A stretch of 64,000 bases of DNA from sequence record NC_070870.1, one strand, 5' to 3'. Position 1 is the stretch's first letter. Each line of letters begins with the position of its first letter. Positions 43,982-64,000 of this stretch are shown in pieces. The stretch is from Escherichia phage phi G17. The position numbers were made by a program, and so were the translations under genes. A model generated the notes under the pieces. That model was not told where the DNA came from, ran no database searches, and was given only the letters and a program-made list of their open reading frames with translations.

Positions 43982-44488
43982 TTATTTACTGCTTCTCGCA
44001 GCTACTGGTTTGTTTTCCTGGTTATTGTACTTGCCTGTGTATGTGGCAGGTTCTTGAACCAGATGAAATAGTACTTGAGCTATCCCGGAACCAGCCGGGA
44101 TATGTAATTTCTTACGCCCGTGATAGACCAGTTCAAGGGTAAGATACCCTTTCCATCCTGGTTCTATTACGGTATTGAACACTGATAGTGCACGTCTTGC
44201 CCATGTAGACTTATCGTGAACGATAGCTACACAGGACGGGGACATGTTGAACTTCTCAATTGCTGAAGCCAATGCGAATTTACCAAGATGGTGTGATATT
44301 TGTTTTCCATCAACGACTTTCACCATTGGAATCAACCCAAATAAGCGATAGAAGGTAATGTCCTGCTTTATGCGTATGTCGTAACCAGCTTCACCCAATC
44401 CATAGCTTACACCATGCTCGGATACCTTATGGTCTGGGACATCCAGCAACTGAGATGAACGATATAGAGAATTACCATTAACAACCAT
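43982..44488 (-). CDS. dcd: dCTP deaminase (dUTPase-fold) family protein (168 aa)
   Basis: STWARRALSVFNTVIEPGWKGYLTLEL and GIAQVLF resemble dCTP deaminase core motifs. Confidence 0.6.
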   Translation of the reverse strand: MVVNGNSLYRSSQLLDVPDHKVSEHGVSYGLGEAGYDIRIKQDITFYRLFGLIPMVKVVDGKQISHHLGKFALASAIEKFNMSPSCVAIVHDKSTWARRALSVFNTVIEPGWKGYLTLELVYHGRKKLHIPAGSGIAQVLFHLVQEPATYTGKYNNQENKPVAARSSK

Positions 44489-45663
44489 TATTTCATTCCT
44501 TTAGGGATATGAACTACCTCCCCAAAAGGTACGGTAGCACTAGGGTTATTCAGAACACACCAGATGATTGGAATATCAAACGGGAGTTCTTCCATTGGGC
44601 GAACGTACATATCAGAGAATATGATTGCAGCGGTTGGCTTATTCTTAATAATCCATTCGCGTACTGGTTCAAGGTTTGTACCACCACGACCAGTAATCTT
44701 AATCTCTTCAAAAGTATCTTCTTCAGTGATGTCTATTTCTTCTTGGATAATATCGTCGAAGGTAATAAGGGACATCTTCTTAGGATTGAACTGGCTCTTA
44801 ACGTAGGCAACCTCTGAGTTAAAACGCAGAGAGTCAGCACTACTGATAGAACCAGATACATCCTCAAAGTATGCTAAATGTCGTAAACGTCCTTCATCAT
44901 CTTCCAGGGATGGTAGATAGATGTCAGTGAAACGACGGTTAGGTCTGGCCCACGTATAGCGTGAGTCATCAATGTCAGTGAAGAAGTCCATAAGGACTTC
45001 CTGCCAAGGAACCACTGGTTTAAGGAATTGGGTAATAACCTCTTCCATATGACCAGCACCTTTACCTGGCATCACTCCACCAGCCATCTTCTGGCTTTGC
45101 ATTGCACGTACTACGTTGTTGACAACAGCACCCTGGGACTGCCCCGAAGAGGGAGCTTTCATGTCGCCAGCAAGACCTGCTCCGGCACCCCCTGACGGCT
45201 GCTGCCTTTTCTGTGGGTTCTTCATCAGGTCATCGTAGATGTCTTCTTCGACCCATCCTTTATATTGAGGGTCTTTGCAAATACCTTCGTCGATACCAGT
45301 GAACTTGTAACCATCTTCCTCTAACTGAAGGTTAATGAAGTGGTCACATGCCTGGTTCCAGACTTCTGGGTCACGGCTTCCACAACGGATGCCATGCAGA
45401 TATGCCACATGCCAGAGTTCGTGCATTAGCACTGTTTCTCTTGCATCAGGACACATCCAGATAAAGAAGTCTGGGTTGAATCGTAGTTCTATCCCATCGG
45501 TACATGCAGTAGGACAATCCTCACGATTCCATGAGAACTTAAGACTACACAGCAATGAACCAAAGAAAGCAGCACTCCTGCCCAAAAATGCCTGTGCTTG
45601 AATACGGTCATACTCACGCATGAGTTGTTCATCACTAAGTGTGTGCTGAGGTATCTGGTTCAT
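44488..45663 (-). CDS. VWA-domain protein with N-terminal HExxH metallopeptidase-like region (391 aa)
   Basis: MHELWHVAYLHG (HExxH); MIDAS-like DVSGSIS; immediately downstream of MoxR-like ATPase. Confidence 0.55.
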   Translation of the reverse strand: MNQIPQHTLSDEQLMREYDRIQAQAFLGRSAAFFGSLLCSLKFSWNREDCPTACTDGIELRFNPDFFIWMCPDARETVLMHELWHVAYLHGIRCGSRDPEVWNQACDHFINLQLEEDGYKFTGIDEGICKDPQYKGWVEEDIYDDLMKNPQKRQQPSGGAGAGLAGDMKAPSSGQSQGAVVNNVVRAMQSQKMAGGVMPGKGAGHMEEVITQFLKPVVPWQEVLMDFFTDIDDSRYTWARPNRRFTDIYLPSLEDDEGRLRHLAYFEDVSGSISSADSLRFNSEVAYVKSQFNPKKMSLITFDDIIQEEIDITEEDTFEEIKITGRGGTNLEPVREWIIKNKPTAAIIFSDMYVRPMEELPFDIPIIWCVLNNPSATVPFGEVVHIPKGMK

Positions 45664-46757: not shown

Positions 46758-47087
46758 TTAAGATTTAACGCAAGGGTATGCTTTGTGGATTGCCACATTA
46801 ATCATGTCAGCAGGATGGTTCAGTTTTTGGATAGTTGCATCCAACAGAATCTCATCTGCTACTTTGTGAAGTACATGCTTAAGCTGGATACCTTCTGGTA
46901 CGCAGTTATCGGTAATATCCACAGCCATGGATACCATACCCATGTAATAACCTTGGCTCGTATAATCAGGTGTATCGTACTTGTAGGCTTTGGCAGCAGC
47001 TTCCAGCAAGGTTGCACGACTAGATGCTTGAGCACCGAATGAAAGAGCTGATAGAACCACTACAGCAACAGCAATTAAAGTTTTCAT
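46758..47087 (-). CDS. Small secreted/periplasmic protein (109 aa) with signal peptide
   Basis: N-terminus MKTLIAVAVVVLSALSFGAQA (AXA cleavage-like). Confidence 0.5.
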   Translation of the reverse strand: MKTLIAVAVVVLSALSFGAQASSRATLLEAAAKAYKYDTPDYTSQGYYMGMVSMAVDITDNCVPEGIQLKHVLHKVADEILLDATIQKLNHPADMINVAIHKAYPCVKS

Positions 47088-47273
47088 TTAGTTACCTTTT
47101 AACTCGTTGAGTTGAAGTACTCCGGTAGGGGTTAATGACCACCCAAGACCGGCATTGAACTGTACTAAGCCCAGCTTCTTAAGAGACTGTGCGGTTTTGT
47201 TATTACGGTTGCTGGTGGCAGAACCACCTTGAACCATGCGAATGAAGATTACTTGGGACTGGGTAAGTTTCAT
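47088..47273 (-). CDS. Hypothetical small protein (61 aa)
   Basis: ORF. Confidence 0.4.
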   Translation of the reverse strand: MKLTQSQVIFIRMVQGGSATSNRNNKTAQSLKKLGLVQFNAGLGWSLTPTGVLQLNELKGN

Positions 47274-47458
47274 TTTTTCTCCGGTACGAACTGCATTACG
47301 CAGTTTTGATTACGAGGGATACTCAATTCACATTCATGCTTGAGGGTTTGCGTTACAGAATTTGGTGTAGGACCAAAGTAGTTATTATTAATAGCTACAA
47401 TTCCTGCACCAATGAACCCACCTAGTACGAATGAGAAGAATGCAATCTCTTTGTACAT
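47270..47458 (-). CDS. Small membrane protein (62 aa, one TM helix)
   Basis: IAFFSFVLGGFIGAGIVAI; GGAG upstream. Confidence 0.45.
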   Translation of the reverse strand: MYKEIAFFSFVLGGFIGAGIVAINNNYFGPTPNSVTQTLKHECELSIPRNQNCVMQFVPEKK

Positions 47459-47482
47459 TTCCTGGCTCCAGTTTGTTTAAGT

Positions 47483-47512
47483 CAAAAAAAGACCTCCTAT
47501 TTCTAGGAGGTC
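47483..47512 (-). terminator. Intrinsic terminator (minus strand) GACCTCCTA-gaaa-TAGGAGGTC + TTTTTTT
   Basis: 9-bp stem, 7-T run. Confidence 0.65.
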
Positions 47513-47561
47513 AAACTTGAGGGTTTCGTGTCAGGGTTTATAACCCCAAATAAGAACTCAA

Positions 47562-48158
47562 TTACAGAGCAGAGTAGGCTAATTGTAGCGTAGTAGATAC
47601 ACCATCTTTGGTAATAGTCAGTTCTGCATCATAAACCCCAGGGCTTGGCTCAGTGCCCCACTTATAACTGATTACCCCGTAACCTAAGGTTGGTTCCAGT
47701 TTAATATCATAGGAAGCTGCTGCTTCCCCTTCCACAGCAAGGGTGATGGTTCCAGTTGAACCAGTAGGCTTAGGTACTACACGGAGGTAGCGTACACCTT
47801 CATATACATCCAAAGTCTCCCCGTCTTGGTACAGGCGGGAAATTTCCTCTGTTTCCGGGTCATAGCGATAAACATCAAACCCAACTGGTACAGGGTCTGA
47901 GCCGGGAACTACTTCATAGATATCCCAGTCGTTAAGGTTGGTCAGGTTGTCCGGGAAGAATGCAGTCTGAGCTACATTTCCACCGTTACGGAAGTAAGCA
48001 ATCTTACGGATACCGTGCCAGATAACATAACTATCCGGGTAGGTAGCATCAGGGTGTTCAAATGAACCGATAGCTACAAAACCATCCTCCATAGAGGGAG
48101 AGGTTGAGTAGTTAATTTTCTTGGTAGATTGTTGAGCAGATACATATACAGTTGGCAT
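47562..48158 (-). CDS. Hypothetical beta-rich protein (198 aa)
   Basis: ORF; part of the terminator-flanked two-gene cassette. Confidence 0.5.
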   Translation of the reverse strand: MPTVYVSAQQSTKKINYSTSPSMEDGFVAIGSFEHPDATYPDSYVIWHGIRKIAYFRNGGNVAQTAFFPDNLTNLNDWDIYEVVPGSDPVPVGFDVYRYDPETEEISRLYQDGETLDVYEGVRYLRVVPKPTGSTGTITLAVEGEAAASYDIKLEPTLGYGVISYKWGTEPSPGVYDAELTITKDGVSTTLQLAYSAL

Positions 48159-48159
48159 C

Positions 48160-49401
48160 TTAGATTTCCTCTTTGTATGACATGCCTAAGTTGGCAGCGA
48201 AGCCCATATTATTGAACTGAAGGTTAATGTTACCACCAACTGGTTGCATATCCACAACGTCGGGTGATGCCAGCATTACTGTAGTTAGGGAGAGGCTATC
48301 AGCCAGTATCTGTACATTTGACAGAGTACAATTCTCATTTGATGAGATTCTGATTGAGTGGTAATACGCACCACTCGCAGAAGATTCAATCATTACTTCT
48401 TGGTCTGTTATTGGTCCCATCAGGATATGTGTACGAGATGCCCCATTAGGACTCATAAACTTAATAACCATAGAACCTGCTTGAGAAAGGGTAGTTGTGA
48501 ACCGGATGGCATTGTACTTACTAGAATCAGTTGCTCCACCCGGATAGGTTAATTCCAGGTATTCATTAGCATCATCATTACCACCGGTATACGTAGCAGT
48601 ACCTGCTGAGTAAGTCCAGGTAGCTTTAGAAGCAGAAGCTGTAGGAGTAGCTGGAGTACCTCCCATAATGCGTTTATAAGCTAGCAGGTCTACTGGAGTA
48701 CCACTGGTTCCAACGTAGTCCTTAAAGCCTCTGTAACCTATCAGGAAGCGTAAATACTTCTGCTCAGGTAATTGCTCAAACTTCAGGGAAAACACACTGG
48801 AGTTCTCTGTATTGGATACAAACTCTGCATCCACAACAGGATGTTCTTTATCAATGATACGACCAATCAGTGGTGTAATTGGTTCATCTGCTTCCACTAT
48901 AAGGTCTGCCTCTTCCAGAGTGAGGTTGGAACCAATGAAGATAGCTGCCCAGCATACCCAGTCATTAGCCTGAGTATAGTAAGCCAACTGGAGAGGCTCA
49001 CCTCCATGCGTTGCACGTAATCCTTGTAAACCTTGGCTCATTTCTTTACGACCTGTAACCATAAGGATGCAGTTCGGATAGGCCATAGTGTAAGGCACAG
49101 TGTATGAGGTCAGTCTGCTCTCGCTGGTATTGAAATCCATTGGACCTGGTTCCAGTGGCTCAGGGCCAGATTGAATCATACGGATAGGATAGTTCATTGC
49201 ATCATCTTGCCCATCTCTGTACAGGAGGTCTTGAACGTGATGGAACATGACATGGTTAAGCGGATTGCCTAAAATATCTTGTCCTTCTTCATGATGGTAT
49301 TCCCCAATAGGTACATACCCATCAAGACCGGCATTCACCTCATAGGGAACTACGGCTATAGCTTTAGGCTTATCTGATTTAAACACTTTACGGTTTGGCA
49401 T
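48160..49401 (-). CDS. Hypothetical protein (413 aa), T/S/G-rich beta-rich C-terminal half
   Basis: ORF with GAGGG upstream; stop abuts next start. Confidence 0.5.
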   Translation of the reverse strand: MPNRKVFKSDKPKAIAVVPYEVNAGLDGYVPIGEYHHEEGQDILGNPLNHVMFHHVQDLLYRDGQDDAMNYPIRMIQSGPEPLEPGPMDFNTSESRLTSYTVPYTMAYPNCILMVTGRKEMSQGLQGLRATHGGEPLQLAYYTQANDWVCWAAIFIGSNLTLEEADLIVEADEPITPLIGRIIDKEHPVVDAEFVSNTENSSVFSLKFEQLPEQKYLRFLIGYRGFKDYVGTSGTPVDLLAYKRIMGGTPATPTASASKATWTYSAGTATYTGGNDDANEYLELTYPGGATDSSKYNAIRFTTTLSQAGSMVIKFMSPNGASRTHILMGPITDQEVMIESSASGAYYHSIRISSNENCTLSNVQILADSLSLTTVMLASPDVVDMQPVGGNINLQFNNMGFAANLGMSYKEEI

Positions 49402-49448
49402 ACTTCGTACCCTCTTTTAGTTGTATATGCACGAGAGAGTATACAGTG

Positions 49449-49485
49449 GAAATAAAAAAGCCCCACACTGTTTAGGTGTGAGGCT
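49449..49485 (-). terminator. Intrinsic terminator (minus strand), 10-bp stem + UUUUUAUU
   Basis: AGCCUCACAC / GUGUGGGGCU stem with one G-U pair. Confidence 0.6.
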
Positions 49486-49489
49486 AGTT

Positions 49490-49672
49490 TCAGCTGTTGA
49501 TGCAGTATATCCAGTAACCTATCCATCCTGCTAATACAAAACAAGCAGCAGAGTAAGCACCATAGTATTGCAATGGTTCCTTCTCTTCGTGTGCTTTAAC
49601 GATTGTTATCAATACAATGCCTGATAAAACTATCAGGATTACCTTAGTAATTACTTCATAAGTAAATGGCAT
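49490..49672 (-). CDS. Small membrane protein (60 aa from ATG at 49672, two TM segments)
   Basis: GGAGG upstream of ATG; hydrophobic ITKVILIVLSGIVLITIV and AACFVLAGWIGYWIY. Confidence 0.45.
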   Translation of the reverse strand: MPFTYEVITKVILIVLSGIVLITIVKAHEEKEPLQYYGAYSAACFVLAGWIGYWIYCINS

Positions 49673-49690
49673 GTTGACTACCTCCAAGCA

Positions 49691-49728
49691 AAAAATAAAA
49701 GGCCCCACTCCCGAAGGAATGAGGCCAG
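49691..49728 (-). terminator. Intrinsic terminator (minus strand), 11-bp stem with UUCG loop + UUUUAUUUUUU
   Basis: GGCCUCAUUCC-uucg-GGAGUGGGGCC. Confidence 0.65.
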
Positions 49729-49859
49729 TTTATTAACACACTTTCACAGTCCAGCCTTTGTAAGCATCTATAAAGGCAATCCAGTCATCTTCTGCCCATA
49801 GTCTAGAACAAACTCCTGGGGCTTTAAATCTATATAAACCTTGTCTATAAGCTTCTTTT

Positions 49860-51077
49860 TTAGCTAAGGGCATAATCGGTCTCCAGAATGTCTTGCCAGA
49901 GGCTGTCATCCAGCTTACCAGCAGAGAACTCTTGTCCCAGTACCTGAGACAGAATGAAGCCTAGCAAGTCACTCTTAGCAATGTCAGACAGAATCTGATT
50001 GTACTGACGACGCAAGTCATTGCCATAGTTAGGATGGCAACGGAAGCAGTCATGTACGGTCATTACAGGGAATGATTTCTTAGGCATGGTATTGAGCATA
50101 GCCATGATTACATCCGTATCAACCAATGCAATTGTTTCTGAATCCAGGTAGTCAAAGATACGAGTAGACAGGAAGCCTGACTTCTCATAGCTAGCCCACA
50201 GTGTGTTAACCATTTCATAGTTATCATCAGAACCAACCATGTAATCACTAGTTCCTTCACAGAGTGACTTAACATAGCTCACCTGGTTCATGTCGAAGTT
50301 ACAACGACGCAGCATCTCACGTACCACCATCCCATCAATAGAGTGGGTGATGTTAGCAGAGAGCATACGAGTCTTCTCTTCAGTACCCTGAACCATACGA
50401 GTGATGTCGAATGGTTTACCTAAGAAGTTAACAGTCTGTACTTCAGGAACCATGACCTTAATGACAGCATGATAGTTGTCAGGCAGTACCCATACGTATC
50501 GGTTAGCATCCGGGTTACCACATTGCAGTAAGAACTTGTTCAATGCCCAAGGCCCACTAGCAACAGTTTCCATTACATTCTCAAAAGTCTTGAGACGGAT
50601 ACCTTCTCCGAATACTTCTTTAGGCTTAGCTTCTGAGCCATAGAACGCAGTCATAACTGCCTGCTTAGTGTCACTACGTTTGATGCGAGATGCTTCGCCA
50701 AGGATATCCAGCATCTTGTGGTAGATAACTGTATAAGCATCACGGCGTAATGGCTTACCATTTTCTCCCATGTAGTTAACTACGTTACACAGTTCGGCAG
50801 CAGAACGATCACCAGTCAGACAGGCTAATAACTGTAAGCCAGATGATGTAGCATCCAGAGCTACGGTATAGCCAATAGGCTTACCTGCTTTCATATCTTT
50901 CCATGCGTTTACACCTGCATAGAACAGTGCAGATTCTTCAGCCTCATCTACCAGATTAAGCAGATTAGCTTCATTCTCATCGAACCAGCTAATACGTTCA
51001 TCCCATGTCTTCTTATCTAAGCCATAGTTGTTAGCAATATCTACTTTCAGGTATTCACGGGCAGTTAACAGTTGCAT
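49860..51077 (-). CDS. T7-like single-subunit RNA polymerase, catalytic (C-terminal) subunit; N4 RNAP II large-subunit-like (405 aa)
   Basis: ALDATSSGLQLLA (motif A, compare DGSCSGIQH), RSDTKQAVMTAFYGS (motif B, compare RSVTKRSVMTLAYGS), VMTVHDCF (motif C). Confidence 0.85.
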   Translation of the reverse strand: MQLLTAREYLKVDIANNYGLDKKTWDERISWFDENEANLLNLVDEAEESALFYAGVNAWKDMKAGKPIGYTVALDATSSGLQLLACLTGDRSAAELCNVVNYMGENGKPLRRDAYTVIYHKMLDILGEASRIKRSDTKQAVMTAFYGSEAKPKEVFGEGIRLKTFENVMETVASGPWALNKFLLQCGNPDANRYVWVLPDNYHAVIKVMVPEVQTVNFLGKPFDITRMVQGTEEKTRMLSANITHSIDGMVVREMLRRCNFDMNQVSYVKSLCEGTSDYMVGSDDNYEMVNTLWASYEKSGFLSTRIFDYLDSETIALVDTDVIMAMLNTMPKKSFPVMTVHDCFRCHPNYGNDLRRQYNQILSDIAKSDLLGFILSQVLGQEFSAGKLDDSLWQDILETDYALS

Positions 51078-61014: not shown

Positions 61015-61725
61015 ATGCAGAAATTATCGGAAGTATACCGTGGCTTGGCACTGAGTACCTTGAAGGGTACTGGTTCAGTCACAGATGACAGACTAGGTAT
61101 TGAACCAGATAGTAAGCCGGAGATACTGGCAGCTATTAATGAAGGGCTGGTACGACTACATAGTCGTTTCCCTCTTAAGACTAATAGCTGCATTGTGGAG
61201 ATGAAGGAAGGACGCACTGATTATCCTCTTCAATCCAAATATGCTTACTCCAGATTTACTAAGCCTACTCTTGAGATTCAGTATCCCTACATTATGGATG
61301 GGTTCATGAAACCTTTTCAGGATGATGTTATTAAAATCTTAAATGTGTTTGATAACTCTGGGAATCGACGTAGACTGAACGACGATTCAGACCCTCGTGC
61401 TATCTTCACCCCACGACCTGATACTATTCAGTGTATGCGTCCTCGACACTTCGAGGCACTTAACGTAACGTATCAAGCTAAGCACCCAGTGCTTACGGGT
61501 GATGAAGAACAGGAAGTTGACTTAGCTGATACGCTAATGACAGCACTTCATAACTGGGTGGGTTATCGTTACCACACTGGTTTGAATACTCCTGAAGCTA
61601 ACGCTAAAGCAGCAGAGTATCTGCAAACGTATGAAAGCATCTGTGGTGAGGTTGTTGATTACGACCTGGCTAATGGAAGTATTTCAATTACCGAAACTAA
61701 ATTTGAACAACGAGGATGGCGATGA
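61015..61725 (+). CDS. Hypothetical virion/tail protein (236 aa)
   Basis: ORF following terminase. Confidence 0.5.
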   Translation: MQKLSEVYRGLALSTLKGTGSVTDDRLGIEPDSKPEILAAINEGLVRLHSRFPLKTNSCIVEMKEGRTDYPLQSKYAYSRFTKPTLEIQYPYIMDGFMKPFQDDVIKILNVFDNSGNRRRLNDDSDPRAIFTPRPDTIQCMRPRHFEALNVTYQAKHPVLTGDEEQEVDLADTLMTALHNWVGYRYHTGLNTPEANAKAAEYLQTYESICGEVVDYDLANGSISITETKFEQRGWR

Positions 61726-62852
61726 ACGCACATACCCCCTTTGATGCAAATAAGGATTGGACCAATCCTTACTGTCAGAACAGTTCCAATGACCCAATGG
61801 TAGATGCACTACTTGGTAATGCTTACCATGTAGTTCGTACTGTCTACTGTAACTTGGGTAATCTGAAACTTATCTACGATTTCCTGAACCAGTATGGGAT
61901 GGTTCTTGGTGTACAGTCTGAAGCAGAACTTAAGGCTTTAACTACTAAAGCTACCTTTGCTCGTATCTATGATAAGACTCCTGCTGGTGACCGACAGGTT
62001 ACTGATTACTTGTACGTGGAAGGTGACCGTACTGGTATCACTCCCGATGATACTGCTGCTACTGGGTCGTGGATTAAAGTAGCAACATCTAGCCAGGAAG
62101 ATGGTAATAACGGTAATGCATCTACATATGTAGTTTGGGGATACACTGCTACCGGTGGAGAAAATACCATTACAGTCCCAACTGATACGGTAGGTGTAGC
62201 CTTCATAACCGTGAACGGATTTACTCAAACAAATGGCAAGGGTTACAGTTTTAATGCTGAGTCTGGTGTAGTTACTCTAGCCCAATCATTGGAAGCCGGT
62301 GAAGAAGTTCTAATGTTTCTTACTGGAATGCCAGCTGTACCGGACACCCTTAGTATTGATAACTGGCGTGTAGTTAACTGGCTCTATAATCAAGGGGCTG
62401 CTGTTGGTGGTGAGCAGGTTATTAATATCCCATTCGTATTTGCAGACGTATCAGCAGTTTACGTAAACGGTTCACGTTTATACAAAAACCTCAGTAATAT
62501 GTCTTATGAAATTGATGTGCCTAACAGAAGGATTTTCCTAACAGAACCACTGACAGTAAATGACAGGGTTATTCTTACTATTGGTGGTACAGAGGAAACT
62601 ATTCAGGTATCTGACAGGACTTTGCAAGAAGTTGCTCGTGGATTTAACCTGAAGGATTCAGAGGTTATTCTGGATAGTGATCATACAACTTTCCTGAACA
62701 ATAAGAAGGTTGTATATGTTAGCAATCAGCAGAAGTCCTATAAGTTACCGACCCTCCCTCCGAATGTAAGTATTGCTGGTGTAGTTGGTGACCAACTAAC
62801 CTATGTTCCAGGGAACATTACTGTTACTTTGCTCCCTATTACTATCATCTAG
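61716..62852 (+). CDS. Hypothetical tail protein (378 aa)
   Basis: ORF, overlapping start; T/G/V-rich beta-rich composition. Confidence 0.5.
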   Translation: MAMNAHTPFDANKDWTNPYCQNSSNDPMVDALLGNAYHVVRTVYCNLGNLKLIYDFLNQYGMVLGVQSEAELKALTTKATFARIYDKTPAGDRQVTDYLYVEGDRTGITPDDTAATGSWIKVATSSQEDGNNGNASTYVVWGYTATGGENTITVPTDTVGVAFITVNGFTQTNGKGYSFNAESGVVTLAQSLEAGEEVLMFLTGMPAVPDTLSIDNWRVVNWLYNQGAAVGGEQVINIPFVFADVSAVYVNGSRLYKNLSNMSYEIDVPNRRIFLTEPLTVNDRVILTIGGTEETIQVSDRTLQEVARGFNLKDSEVILDSDHTTFLNNKKVVYVSNQQKSYKLPTLPPNVSIAGVVGDQLTYVPGNITVTLLPITII

Positions 62853-62913
62853 TAACTCATCCCCCTTTCAAACAATTGAAGAGGGGTTTACTTAGAAAAA
62901 TAATGAGGTTTTT

Positions 62914-64000
62914 ATGAACGAAATGTTCTCTCAAGGCGGTAAAGGTTCAACTGGAATCTTAACCAATAAACAAGCAATAGCCCGTCACTTTGGGGTTAAA
63001 CAATCTGAGGTTGTTTACTTCTCGGTGGGTGCTCTACTTACTGGTTACAAAGTCATCTATGACAAAGTGACACAGCGTGCTTACTCATTACCTGCTGATA
63101 TTGGTTCAGGTGTTACTGCTGTAAGCCTTAGTCCTGCTGGGGTGTTAGTTCACTCTGCCGGTAATGTGGATCTGGGTGAGTTAGCAGTATCTCGCGAAGA
63201 GTATGTAACCTTACCGGGTTCATTTGATACTGGCGTAACAGTTAATACTAAGAATGAACTGGTTGTCTTTACTGATGGTAAATACCGTTGGGATGGGGCA
63301 TTACCTAAAGAAGTGCCTACTGGCTCAACACCTGCATCAACCGGTGGTGAGGGTGCCGGCAAGTGGCTGAGTGTTGGTGTTGCAGCATTGCGTAGCAATT
63401 TATCATCAACATCTGGCGCTACGTTAATTGGCACTGGTGACGGCTCTACTTTACAGGAGTATGTTGACAATTGCCAATATGTAGAATCCTTTCAATCGGC
63501 AACTGCATTATCATCTGTAAGACCTGAAGTTAAAAAAATTGTTACATTAAGGTATTATGCTTCGTTACCATCTGGTGCTTTTCACACTCATTATTCAGGT
63601 AACACCTTTATCCGTAGTGGAACAGGAACCCCAGGCGAAACAGATGGTGGTAGCTATTTTGTGCTTTCAGATGGGTCTAAGTGGGTTACTTGTTTACCTA
63701 TTCATGTAGACAGATTTGGTGCATGTGGTGGCGTAGCCCCAGTTACATTTGATTCTGGTCCCGCATTCCAGAAAGCTGTAATTGCTGTAGGTAAAAGTGC
63801 GTATTCATCTTCTGGATTGGTTCATATGGACGGTCCGGTATACAATATAAATACTAAGGTGTTATGGCCTTCTAATGTAACTTTTGTGGGTAATCAGACC
63901 ACAATCGTATCCTCATCTTCTAATTATATATTTGAGAGCGGTTACTTTAGTTCAGGGGATCTGGTAACGAACTGGGGTCTTGATGATACTACCTTGGTTG
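62914..64000 (+). CDS. Tail fiber/tailspike-like protein, N-terminal part (ORF open to window end, at least 362 aa)
   Basis: ATG at 62914 with GAGG upstream; translated by hand with no stop to position 64000; G/S/T-rich with repeated VxxxG beta-like segments. Confidence 0.5.
   Translation, partial: MNEMFSQGGKGSTGILTNKQAIARHFGVKQSEVVYFSVGALLTGYKVIYDKVTQRAYSLPADIGSGVTAVSLSPAGVLVHSAGNVDLGELAVSREEYVTLPGSFDTGVTVNTKNELVVFTDGKYRWDGALPKEVPTGSTPASTGGEGAGKWLSVGVAALRSNLSSTSGATLIGTGDGSTLQEYVDNCQYVESFQSATALSSVRPEVKKIVTLRYYASLPSGAFHTHYSGNTFIRSGTGTPGETDGGSYFVLSDGSKWVTCLPIHVDRFGACGGVAPVTFDSGPAFQKAVIAVGKSAYSSSGLVHMDGPVYNINTKVLWPSNVTFVGNQTTIVSSSSNYIFESGYFSSGDLVTNWGLDDTTLV

What the first reader, a model, noticed from the sequence alone, without database searches (positions are those of the whole stretch)
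46758..49728. Terminator-insulated accessory cassettes between the RNAP II genes and the AAA ATPase
Three strong minus-strand intrinsic terminators (49691..49728, 49449..49485, 47483..47512) partition this segment into independent units: a 60-aa two-TM membrane protein; a two-gene unit of 413 aa and 198 aa beta-rich proteins with no recognisable catalytic motifs; and a trio of small envelope-type proteins (62-aa TM protein, 61-aa protein, 109-aa protein with a signal peptide). Insulated cassettes encoding secreted or membrane proteins inside a replication/transcription module look like moron-type accessory functions. They could be superinfection exclusion, receptor masking, or an anti-defence or defence system, and none is assignable from sequence.
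Basis: partly seen in the sequence, partly recalled or inferred. Interest (0 to 1): 0.7.

Follow-up and report, generated by a model that had tools for sequence, protein, structure and literature searches.

The report
Two-gene capsid decoration cassette, terminator-bracketed
The segment is the terminator-bracketed slot where N4-like phages encode their capsid-coating protein; in this phage (phi G17) the usual single gene is replaced by two linked genes that appear to keep the same capsid-docking domain but carry new outer domains, so the central cassette is a variant structural module rather than a defence or exclusion system.

Summary
The ORFs and three strong minus-strand hairpin/T-tract terminators sit at the stated coordinates, and the hairpins are conserved with compensatory changes in relatives. 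The window is Escherichia phage phi G17, a G7C-like N4 phage.

The central 413-aa and 198-aa unit occupies the slot that in N4, G7C, PhAPEC7 and U1G holds one gene, gp17, the Ig-like capsid decoration protein. A 1.94-kb block (47555-49491: terminator T2, leader and both genes) replaces the ~0.9-kb gp17 block, while the capsid protein stays 97% identical to G7C.

Both products keep gp17's N-terminal DI domain, which in N4 sits on each capsid quasi-3-fold axis. This is unambiguous for the 198-aa protein, already named "Hoc-like head decoration" in RefSeq. It is weaker but consistent for the 413-aa "hypothetical protein". Their distal parts are not Ig-like. The long protein carries an uncharacterised beta-rich module with glycan-binding-like fold hits.

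The long-plus-short pair recurs in every carrier found, and one relative has three DI genes in the slot.

The moron/defence reading fails for this unit. It remains an untested possibility for the genus-conserved downstream trio, whose N4 counterpart interval holds exclusion and envelope genes. Verdict: new variant of a known kind, moderate interest.

The parts
49691..49728 (-). Terminator T1 (11-bp stem, UUCG loop, T-run) after RNAP II large subunit and a 46-aa ORF. It abuts the RBS of the 60-aa gene, so it is probably an attenuator.
   Evidence: dG -20.9, z -5.5; 100% paired in 7 sequences, 2 compensatory pairs.
49490..49672 (-). gp16.1-like 60-aa small membrane protein (PHROG 12530, function unknown).
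   Evidence: one strong TM at residues 7-25 plus an aromatic-rich second hydrophobic stretch.
47555..49491 (-). Swapped block relative to G7C and PhAPEC7. DNA homology stops at 47554 and resumes at 49492. The block holds T2, the leader and both decoration genes.
   Evidence: blastn breakpoints; the ~0.9-kb gp17 block at the same place.
49449..49485 (-). Terminator T2, specific to this cassette type. The single-gp17 cassettes carry a different hairpin at the same position.
   Evidence: dG -16.0, z -4.8.
49402..49448 (-). Leader of the decoration operon with a -10-like TGTATACT, a GCAT motif and a Shine-Dalgarno sequence. T2 plus leader (49402-49489) is 95.5-98.9% identical among carriers, while the flanking genes are 58-86% identical. 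Candidate promoter/5'UTR (inferred).
   Evidence: Similar geometry in the N4 and G7C leaders. Not a structured RNA (z -1.0) and no Rfam match.
48160..49401 (-). Long decoration-type protein, 413 aa (phi G17 gp52, 'hypothetical'). Layout: DI-like anchor (about residues 1-77), 'PGPLDF...ATHGGE...IGRIID' beta module (~85-190), variable linker, beta-sandwich module (~250-368), conserved C-terminal tail.
47562..48158 (-). Short decoration protein, 198 aa (RefSeq: Hoc-like head decoration). Layout: gp17 DI (residues 1-80) plus a ~120-aa beta domain unrelated in sequence to gp17 DII or DIII. Its start lies 1 nt after the 413-aa stop codon (TAA-G-ATG).
47534..47547 (-). Small conserved hairpin GGGGTTATAAACCC in the conserved flank just past the swap boundary. 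Role unknown.
47483..47512 (-). Terminator T3 (9-bp stem, GAAA loop, T7 run) closing the decoration cassette. It lies in the conserved flank.
   Evidence: dG -15.9, z -3.7; compensatory T-A/C-G change against L004.
47270..47458 (-). gp17.1-like 62-aa protein with a single N-terminal TM segment (PHROG 7508, function unknown).
47088..47273 (-). gp17.2-like 61-aa basic soluble protein (PHROG 7665, function unknown). Not an envelope protein.
46758..47087 (-). gp17.3-like 109-aa protein with a signal-like N-terminus and two invariant Cys. Weak Rap1a/Tai4-like signal.

Best explanation
What it is. The segment is the RNAP II-to-gp24 interval of a G7C-like N4 phage (phi G17). Its core is the head-decoration cassette, an ancestral unit bracketed by terminators that in N4, G7C and Moo19 encodes one protein, gp17. 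That protein has domain DI, which sits on each capsid quasi-3-fold axis, followed by two Ig-like domains.

What differs here. In phi G17 and a few uncultured relatives a different allele of the cassette has replaced it. This allele has two translationally coupled genes, and each product begins with a DI-type anchor but ends in non-Ig distal domains. The long 413-aa protein has DI, an uncharacterised two-lobed beta module and a tail. The short 198-aa protein has DI plus one ~120-aa beta domain.

Inferred mechanism. Both proteins dock through DI onto the same 180 quasi-3-fold sites of the T=9 capsid, whose major capsid protein is 97% identical to that of G7C. The result is a mixed or site-partitioned coat. 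The short protein mainly fills or cements sites. The long one displays a glycan-binding-like module that could mediate reversible adhesion to host or environmental polysaccharide.

Inferred expression. T2 blocks read-through from the RNAP II operon. A strongly conserved leader with a -10-like element drives the cassette on its own schedule, which suits a virion gene embedded in the rightward early/middle block. T3 ends the transcript and attenuates entry into the downstream small genes.

Shown versus inferred. Shown: synteny, swap boundaries, DI homology, conservation of the pair, purifying selection, and terminator conservation with covariation. Inferred: capsid binding, site sharing, glycan binding, promoter class and timing.
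For: Synteny and swap. G7C, PhAPEC7, U1G and N4 all have one gp17 between the RNAP II large subunit and gp24, flanked by hairpins. Homology to G7C and PhAPEC7 breaks exactly at 47554 and 49492.

DI in the 198-aa protein. It is 39% identical to G7C gp17 over residues 1-77, E 8e-19. It hits PDB 9e99 (N4 32-kDa protein) and 9d7z at residues 18-76, E about 1e-14. hhalign gives 99.65% probability, E 5e-25. tblastn finds 111 phage records, and the rows listed fall mostly in genes annotated as capsid/head decoration or Ig-domain structural proteins. RefSeq names it Hoc-like head decoration.

DI in the 413-aa protein.
- BLASTP to G7C gp17 residues 1-62, E 2e-5.
- hhalign family against family, 83% probability, E 9e-6.
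- A DI-only HMM built without this family hits it at E 2e-4. It is the only other hit among 588 window ORFs (the next best is 0.47). The HMM also hits every family member, plus P0015 and P0018, at the same N-terminal position.
- P0018 aligns colinearly with the 413-aa protein from residue 32, within DI (E 6e-25). Its DI independently hits the 'Hoc-like head decoration' gene of Stenotrophomonas phage C121 and a gp17-slot gene of Pseudomonas phage Arace01, at E 8e-5 and 3e-6 against 2.3 Gb.

Role of DI. It sits on every quasi-3-fold axis in N4 (PMC11768535). The Moo19 homologue was confirmed on the capsid by cryo-EM (PMC11654681).

No other gp17 in the window. The MCP is 97.25% identical to G7C.

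The pair is conserved. The long gene is followed by a short DI gene in L004, L005, L008 and in the 33%-identical L006/L007. In L004 the short partner is gp17 with DII deleted. L012 has three genes with DI-like N-termini in the slot.

Both genes are under purifying selection, with dN/dS 0.10-0.19 against L005.

The module is virion-surface-like. Foldseek hits are dominated by SGBP-B, GH101 CBMs, CenC-like CBMs and tail-fibre tips. A DI-less relative, P0020, sits between the protease/MCP gene and the portal gene and carries an SGNH esterase.

Regulation. T2 plus leader is 95.5-98.9% identical among carriers, against 58-86% for the neighbouring genes. N4 virion genes are otherwise transcribed leftward by host RNAP with N4SSB (PMC4496689).
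Against: - There is no experimental evidence that either protein is in the phi G17 virion.
- DI evidence for the 413-aa protein is weak in any single test: 28% identity, hhalign 83%, and a direct 413-family against 198-family hhalign probability of only 7%.
- The AlphaFold models are of low to moderate confidence (pLDDT 60 and 46). Foldseek TM-scores are low (<=0.26 apart from the self-hit), so the glycan-binding-like assignment is only a tendency among hits.
- The module profile matches nothing in PDB or Pfam by sequence.
- N4 gp17 also uses DII for capsid contacts, and both proteins here lack DII, so binding geometry may differ.
- The promoter call rests on a -10-like hexamer without a -35. 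The sigma-70 scan found nothing on this strand in the leader.
Confidence: 0.7

Rival explanations
1. Only the 198-aa protein decorates the capsid. The 413-aa protein is a different kind of virion-surface or adsorption protein, for example attached to the tail or neck, or to the short protein. In that case its DI-like N-terminus serves as a generic attachment or partner-binding domain rather than a quasi-3-fold plug.
For: DI similarity of the 413-aa protein is weak. Its post-anchor module recurs at the N-terminus of ~350-1000-aa proteins, some with tail-fibre-like repeats or an SGNH esterase. Many Foldseek hits are tail fibres or receptor-binding proteins. The strict long-plus-short pairing and the 1-nt gene junction would also fit a heterocomplex.
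Against: The DI-like segment is found at the same N-terminal position in all family members and in no other window ORF. It links transitively to annotated decoration proteins. The gene sits in the decoration slot, not among the tail genes. The DI-less relative P0020 lies in a head module next to the capsid gene.
Confidence: 0.17
2. One reading: the terminator-bounded units are moron-type accessory cassettes (superinfection exclusion, receptor masking, defence or anti-defence), and this includes the 413/198-aa pair.
For: Terminators do bound the units. The small proteins are membrane or secreted types. The syntenic N4 interval carries an annotated sie gene, a membrane protein and a lipoprotein. 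U1G has an annotated sie gene next to gp17. The 109-aa protein has a sub-threshold Rap1a/Tai4 immunity signal in 12 of 15 family members. Small-gene content varies between relatives.
Against: For the pair: gp17 DI homology and slot, no signal peptide or TM, no PADLOC hit, and no compositional anomaly. For the small genes: they are conserved across the genus rather than sporadic. The Rap1a score is below Pfam's cut-off, and a family profile finds no Tai4 or Rap1a structure. T1 and T3 leave no room for their own sigma-70 promoters.
Confidence: 0.08
3. The two ORFs are a decaying or split remnant of a single gene (a frameshift or nonsense artefact) with no separate functions.
For: The genes are adjacent with a 1-nt gap. 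In Arace01 the gp17 slot holds two short ORFs that look like a split gene.
Against: Each ORF has its own MP- start, Shine-Dalgarno sequence and DI domain. The arrangement is kept in at least 5 independent contigs at 33-90% identity. dN/dS is 0.10-0.19.
Confidence: 0.02

Closest known systems
N4 gp17 / G7C gp17 / Moo19 gp28 capsid decoration protein (PDB 9e99, 9lbz, 9ld7, 9d7z; PHROG 2973 'Hoc-like head decoration')
   Same: Same genomic slot (RNAP II large subunit, then gp17, then gp24), the same terminator bracket and the same N-terminal DI anchor domain. The capsid lattice is nearly identical, with MCP 97% identical to G7C.
   Different: There are two genes instead of one. Both lack the Ig-like DII and DIII domains. 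The distal domains are unrelated in sequence to gp17. The DI domains are diverged (39% and 28% identity to G7C DI). The 198-aa DI is closer to those of Klebsiella and Erwinia N4-like phages (45-51%).
T4 Hoc and other Ig-like 'tentaclin'-type decoration proteins
   Same: A dispensable-type surface protein built from a capsid-binding domain plus exposed domains thought to mediate adhesion. Works-like analogy only.
   Different: In Hoc the anchor is C-terminal and binds at hexamer centres. There is no sequence relationship, and the distal domains here are not Ig-like.
Phages with two decoration proteins (T4 Hoc+Soc; Shigella phage Sf14, PMC11821841)
   Same: Two different decoration proteins on one capsid.
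   Different: In those phages the two proteins have unrelated folds and different binding sites. Here the two (three in L012) share one anchor domain and would compete for, or partition, one class of site.
Carbohydrate-binding beta-sandwich modules (SGBP-B 7kwb, GH101 CBMs, CenC-like CBMs, tail-fibre tips)
   Same: The best Foldseek matches to the 413-aa model are of this kind.
   Different: TM-scores are low and the model is of moderate confidence. There is no sequence-level match to any CBM family, and no ligand site can be identified.
Tai4/Rap1a periplasmic T6SS immunity proteins (PF18602), considered for the 109-aa protein only
   Same: Small size, signal-like N-terminus, and a match spanning nearly the full model (positions 15-90 of 90) that repeats in 12 of 15 family members.
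   Different: The score is below the gathering cut-off (21.9 against 27.7 bits). No solved Tai4 or Rap1a structure is hit by the family profile. No cognate effector was identified.

Membership tests
N4 gp17-type head decoration protein | N-terminal DI domain (capsid quasi-3-fold anchor): 198-aa protein | tested here: met
   BLASTP E 8e-19; PDB 9e99/9d7z E about 1e-14; hhalign 99.65%; PHROG 2973 E 3e-8.
N4 gp17-type head decoration protein | N-terminal DI domain: 413-aa protein | tested here: met
   Met with weaker support. BLASTP E 2e-5; hhalign 83%, E 9e-6; DI-only HMM E 2e-4, unique among 588 window ORFs; transitive link through P0018. The direct comparison with the 198-aa family is weak.
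N4 gp17-type head decoration protein | Position between the RNAP II large subunit gene and the gp24 ATPase gene, bracketed by hairpin terminators | tested here: met
N4 gp17-type head decoration protein | Ig-like domains DII and DIII following DI | tested here: not met
   No similarity beyond DI. Pfam finds no Ig or Big_2 domain. L004's partner keeps DIII only.
N4 gp17-type head decoration protein | Physical presence on the capsid at quasi-3-fold sites | not testable with these tools
   Needs virion mass spectrometry or cryo-EM of phi G17.
Moron (sporadic accessory gene with its own promoter and terminator) | Sporadic presence or absence among close relatives | tested here: not met
   The pair is an allelic replacement of gp17, not an insertion. 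The 60-, 62-, 61- and 109-aa genes are conserved in G7C, PhAPEC7 and U1G and in many ~70-kb contigs. Some relatives do have extra small genes here.
Moron (sporadic accessory gene with its own promoter and terminator) | Own promoter and terminator; deviant base composition | tested here: inconclusive
   Terminators are present. Only the decoration cassette has a promoter-sized leader. GC is 0.43-0.45, like the neighbouring sequence.
Known anti-phage defence systems (PADLOC-DB) | Match to any defence-protein model | tested here: not met
   No hit at E <= 0.1 for any of the six proteins.
Tai4/Rap1a T6SS immunity protein (109-aa protein) | Pfam PF18602 score at or above the gathering cut-off | tested here: not met
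   21.9 bits against 27.7. 12 of 15 relatives match at E <= 0.01, best 2.3e-5. The family profile finds no PDB entry.
Tai4/Rap1a T6SS immunity protein (109-aa protein) | Periplasmic targeting; binding of a Tae4/Ssp-type amidase | tested here: inconclusive
   Signal-like hydrophobic N-terminus and two invariant Cys. Effector binding cannot be tested here.
Carbohydrate-binding module (413-aa residues ~250-368) | Beta-sandwich CBM fold with a ligand-binding site | tested here: inconclusive
   Foldseek hits are enriched in CBMs, SGBP-B and tail-fibre tips, but TM is <=0.26 and pLDDT about 60-85 in that block. There is no sequence match (CBM25 E 0.43 only).

The most novel reading that the evidence does not exclude
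DI may be a portable capsid-docking tag in N4-like phages that lets one, two or three different cargo proteins, encoded side by side in one terminator-bracketed slot, be displayed together on the same 180 quasi-3-fold sites. In that reading the long protein of phi G17 is a capsid-borne glycan adhesin built from a previously undescribed module family that unrelated phages also use in head-module genes. The capsid itself would then contribute to adsorption or environmental retention. Together with a 97%-identical capsid, the G7C and phi G17 alleles would form a natural swap experiment and a natural two-slot display platform.
Probability: 0.35. Interest if true: 0.65.

Novelty: new variant of a known kind. 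Interest (0 to 1): 0.45.

Why it matters
What exposed decoration domains do (adhesion or capsid cement) is still debated for T4 Hoc, N4 gp17 DIII and Moo19 gp28. This case offers near-isogenic capsids (MCP 97% identical) that carry entirely different decoration sets. It also offers genomes with one, two or three proteins that share a single anchor. Three things become directly testable by cryo-EM, virion proteomics and allele swaps between G7C and phi G17: how binding sites are shared out, whether DI alone is enough for docking, and whether the distal modules bind glycans or alter adsorption. Two practical outcomes follow. It gives a likely function to a 'hypothetical protein' family seen only 7 times in 5.8 billion proteins. 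It also defines a new beta-rich module that recurs in the head or surface proteins of unrelated phages. Finally, it corrects the idea that this cassette is a defence or exclusion system.

Tried and rejected
- Pfam, PHROGs, NCBIfam and PADLOC on the 413-aa protein: no hits.
- tblastn of the 413-aa protein against 50,697 phage records: no match. P0030: no match.
- PDB sequence search with the 413-aa protein and with a 12-member profile of the module: nothing significant. Pfam on the module members: nothing.
- AlphaFold2 of the 198-aa protein: pLDDT 46, too poor for a fold search.
- Rfam on 46.5-50 kb: only a sub-threshold Thr-leader hit (E 0.23), treated as chance. The leader does not fold better than shuffles, so a riboswitch or sRNA reading was dropped.
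- Tai4/Rap1a assignment of the 109-aa protein: not confirmed.
- Split or decayed gene idea: rejected.
- The 'kappa-carrageenase' label on the Arace01 DI gene: judged to be annotation transfer, not evidence of a glycanase.
- The N4 middle-promoter consensus could not be retrieved from the papers held, so promoter class was left open.

Full report
IDENTITY AND OBSERVATION

The window is Escherichia phage phi G17, a G7C-like N4 phage (genus Gamaleyavirus). The 413-aa ORF is 100% identical to PP764_gp52, and flanking DNA is 86-92% identical to G7C, PhAPEC5/7, U1G and others.

The three terminators are the three top-ranked terminator-like sites in 44-53 kb, where 11 sites are found against 5.6 +/- 2.1 expected. 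They fold at -20.9, -16.0 and -15.9 kcal/mol, with z-scores from -3.7 to -5.5. T1 stays 100% paired across seven relatives with two compensatory pairs. T3 shows a T-A to C-G compensatory change. G7C and PhAPEC7 annotate hairpins at the same places, and N4 itself has the order terminator, leader, gp17, terminator.

Three nuances apply. T1 and T3 abut the next gene's ribosome-binding site, so they probably attenuate read-through rather than create independent operons; only T2 is followed by a leader of about 60 nt. Clean terminators are frequent in this genome's early/middle block, about 11 in 38 kb. The 61-aa protein is basic and soluble, not envelope-type, and the 413/198-aa proteins have no signal peptide or TM segment.

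WHAT THE CENTRAL UNIT IS

In G7C, PhAPEC7, U1G and N4, the slot between the RNAP II large subunit (plus a small membrane protein in the G7C group) and the small-gene run preceding the gp24 ATPase holds one gene of about 275 aa. This is gp17, the capsid decoration protein. DNA homology between the window and G7C/PhAPEC7 stops at 47554, 8 nt below the 198-aa stop codon, and resumes at 49492, the end of the 60-aa gene. A 1,937-bp block carrying T2, the leader and both ORFs therefore replaces the ~0.9-kb gp17 block. Each cassette type brings its own, different T2 hairpin.

The 198-aa protein shares its first ~80 residues with gp17:
- 39% identity to G7C gp17, E 8e-19.
- E about 1e-14 to the solved N4 and 9d7z chains.
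- hhalign 99.65%.
- 111 phage records by tblastn; the rows listed fall mostly in genes annotated as capsid/head decoration or Ig-domain structural proteins.
- RefSeq already calls it 'Hoc-like head decoration'.

The 413-aa protein, named 'hypothetical' in RefSeq, has the same kind of N-terminus, but the evidence is weaker:
- BLASTP E 2e-5 and hhalign 83%, E 9e-6.
- A DI-only HMM built without this family hits it at E 2e-4. It is the only other hit among 588 window ORFs, and the HMM hits every family member at the same N-terminal position.
- Its relatives P0015 and P0018 align with it colinearly, P0015 from residue 1 and P0018 from residue 32. P0018's N-terminus hits annotated decoration genes in Stenotrophomonas phage C121 and Pseudomonas phage Arace01 at database-wide significance.

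G7C gp17 finds nothing else in the window. Neither protein has Ig-like DII or DIII domains.

WHAT DI DOES

In the 2.45-A N4 capsid structure, three gp17 copies per asymmetric unit place DI on every quasi-3-fold axis. DII lies flat on a P-domain and DIII is solvent-exposed with uncertain function (PMC11768535). The Moo19 homologue gp28 was confirmed on the capsid by cryo-EM and is listed in that paper's protein table, and the authors stress that decoration proteins diverge between Schitoviridae clades (PMC11654681). The phi G17 major capsid protein is 97.25% identical to that of G7C. The docking lattice is therefore conserved while the decoration set has been exchanged.

THE PAIR IS A CONSERVED UNIT

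The 413-aa family is very rare, with 7 proteins among 5.8 billion and none in 50,697 deposited phage records. Every carrier whose context could be read is N4-like and has the long gene followed directly by a short DI gene:
- L005 and L008: 198 aa.
- L004: 180 aa, which is G7C-type gp17 with DII deleted.
- L006/L007, where the long protein is only 33% identical: a 180-aa ORF with a weak DI-like N-terminus (visible in the alignment, but not significant by the DI HMM, E 4.5) plus an Ig domain.

In the window the junction is TAA-G-ATG, with a Shine-Dalgarno sequence inside the upstream gene. Both genes are under purifying selection, with dN/dS 0.10-0.19 against L005. This, together with each ORF's own DI and start codon, rules out a split or decaying gene. 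In L012, another N4-like contig, three consecutive genes in the slot (799, 169 and 407 aa) all begin with DI-like sequence. The slot therefore behaves as an array of DI-anchored proteins with interchangeable distal parts.

THE DISTAL PARTS

AlphaFold2 gives a moderate model for the 413-aa protein (pLDDT 60). It has beta-rich blocks at about residues 1-77, 85-190 and 250-368 and an unresolved but conserved C-terminal tail.

Foldseek hits have low TM-scores but are dominated by glycan-binding beta-sandwiches and phage fibre tips: SGBP-B, GH101 CBMs, CenC-like CBMs and receptor-binding proteins. They also include an uncharacterised 449-aa protein of an Achromobacter phage.

An exhaustive HMMER search with residues 80-413 found 24 proteins. 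Some have the same ~410-aa architecture. In others the 'PGPLDF...ATHGGEPL...IGRI(N/I)DD' module lies at the N-terminus of 350-1000-aa proteins. One of these, P0020, also has an SGNH esterase and a 'virion structural protein' PHROG, and is encoded between the protease/capsid gene and the portal gene of an unrelated phage.

No Pfam family or PDB sequence matches the module. The 198-aa C-terminal domain is predicted to be all-beta, but its model is poor.

REGULATION (INFERRED)

N4 virion genes are otherwise transcribed leftward by host RNAP activated by N4SSB, whereas early and middle genes run rightward (PMC4496689). gp17 is a virion gene embedded in the rightward block, which gives a rationale for the bracket.

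T2 plus the leader (49402-49489) is 95.5-98.9% identical among carriers. Their flanking genes are only 58-86% identical, and the synonymous sites of the 413-aa gene are saturated.

The leader contains TGTATACT. U1G's gp17 leader has the same octamer, and the N4 and G7C leaders have CATAAT followed 5-7 nt later by GCAT in the same geometry. It is not a known RNA family or a stable structure. I read it as a promoter plus 5'UTR. The promoter class is undetermined.

THE SMALL GENES

The 60-aa (gp16.1), 62-aa (gp17.1), 61-aa (gp17.2) and 109-aa (gp17.3) proteins have homologues in G7C, PhAPEC7 and U1G and in many ~70-kb contigs, so they are not sporadic morons. Even so, the interval is plastic. U1G and L004 carry extra small genes, one of them annotated as superinfection exclusion, and L005 lacks gp17.1. 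In N4 the same interval holds a sie gene, a membrane protein and a lipoprotein.

The 109-aa protein gives a sub-threshold Rap1a/Tai4 match that recurs in 12 of 15 relatives, but a family profile finds no solved Tai4 or Rap1a structure. This is a lead, not an assignment. No protein matches PADLOC defence models.

VERDICT

Its interpretation fails for the centrepiece by its own refutation criterion, and remains open only for the small genes.

The best-supported explanation is a two-gene allele of the gp17 head-decoration cassette: two proteins that share the DI capsid anchor but carry novel, non-Ig distal domains (confidence about 0.7 for both on the capsid, higher for the short one alone). This is a new variant of a known kind.

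Part of it is already in databases, namely the 198-aa annotation. I found no prior annotation or report for three elements: the DI-bearing 413-aa family, the conserved long-plus-short pairing with the one-to-three-gene slot, and the hyper-conserved leader. Interest is moderate (0.45), and the model is readily testable by virion proteomics and cryo-EM.

Noticed in passing
window 49733-49873 (-): A 46-aa ORF (MPLAKKEAYRQGLYRF...) overlaps the 3' end of the RNAP II large-subunit gene and ends just before T1. It is present and called in L004 and L005. It is absent from G7C and PhAPEC7, where the RNAP II stop codon abuts T1.
   Followed up: partly
window 49402-49489 (-): T2 plus the decoration-operon leader is 95.5-98.9% identical among the four carriers, while the adjacent genes are 58-86% identical. 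It contains TGTATACT. The N4 and G7C leaders show CATAAT, 5-7 nt, then GCAT in the same geometry.
   Followed up: partly
window 47534-47547 (-): A small hairpin, GGGGTTATAAACCC, lies immediately inside the conserved flank past the cassette swap boundary. It is kept in G7C, PhAPEC7, L004 and L005. Its role is unknown; it could be a recombination or RNA-processing landmark.
   Followed up: no
window 46758-47087 (-): The 109-aa signal-peptide-like protein (G7C gp17.3 family) gives a sub-threshold Pfam Rap1a/Tai4 T6SS-immunity match in 12 of 15 relatives and has two invariant cysteines. No PDB hit was found with a family profile.
   Followed up: partly
L012:4176-9224 and L012:7102-8000: An uncultured N4-like phage (SRR29078211) has three genes with DI-like N-termini (799, 169 and 407 aa) in the gp17 slot, plus a gene-free gap of about 900 nt with no Rfam match.
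   Followed up: partly
L010:5890-13293: In an unrelated phage, a 982-aa protein carrying the same post-anchor module plus an SGNH esterase is encoded between a protease/capsid fusion gene and the portal gene. This suggests the module is used by head-associated proteins elsewhere.
   Followed up: partly
window 44488-45663 (-): The gp25 homologue is DUF2201 metallopeptidase-like plus a VWA-like domain by Pfam (E 3e-55 and 8e-34). PHROG 1314 and the N4 RefSeq record label it 'HNH endonuclease', which is probably a propagated mislabel.
   Followed up: no
window 61722-63408 (+): The tail fibre and tail protein genes (G7C gp66 and gp63.1 homologues) are conserved with G7C only in their N-terminal parts (64-71% identity), whereas the capsid, portal and terminase proteins are 95-98% identical. 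This is the usual host-range module exchange.
   Followed up: no
L003:1572-3506 (U1G) and L005:2688-4873: Relatives carry HNH endonuclease insertions that split the gp24 ATPase (U1G, annotated 'phage intron') and interrupt the end of the RNAP II large-subunit gene (L005). The window has neither.
   Followed up: no
L014:1169-2593 (N4): In N4 the interval after gp17 encodes an annotated superinfection-exclusion protein (gp18), a membrane protein (gp19) and a lipoprotein (gp20), with further terminators after gp18 and gp20. This interval looks like an island of envelope-directed genes across the subfamily.
   Followed up: partly
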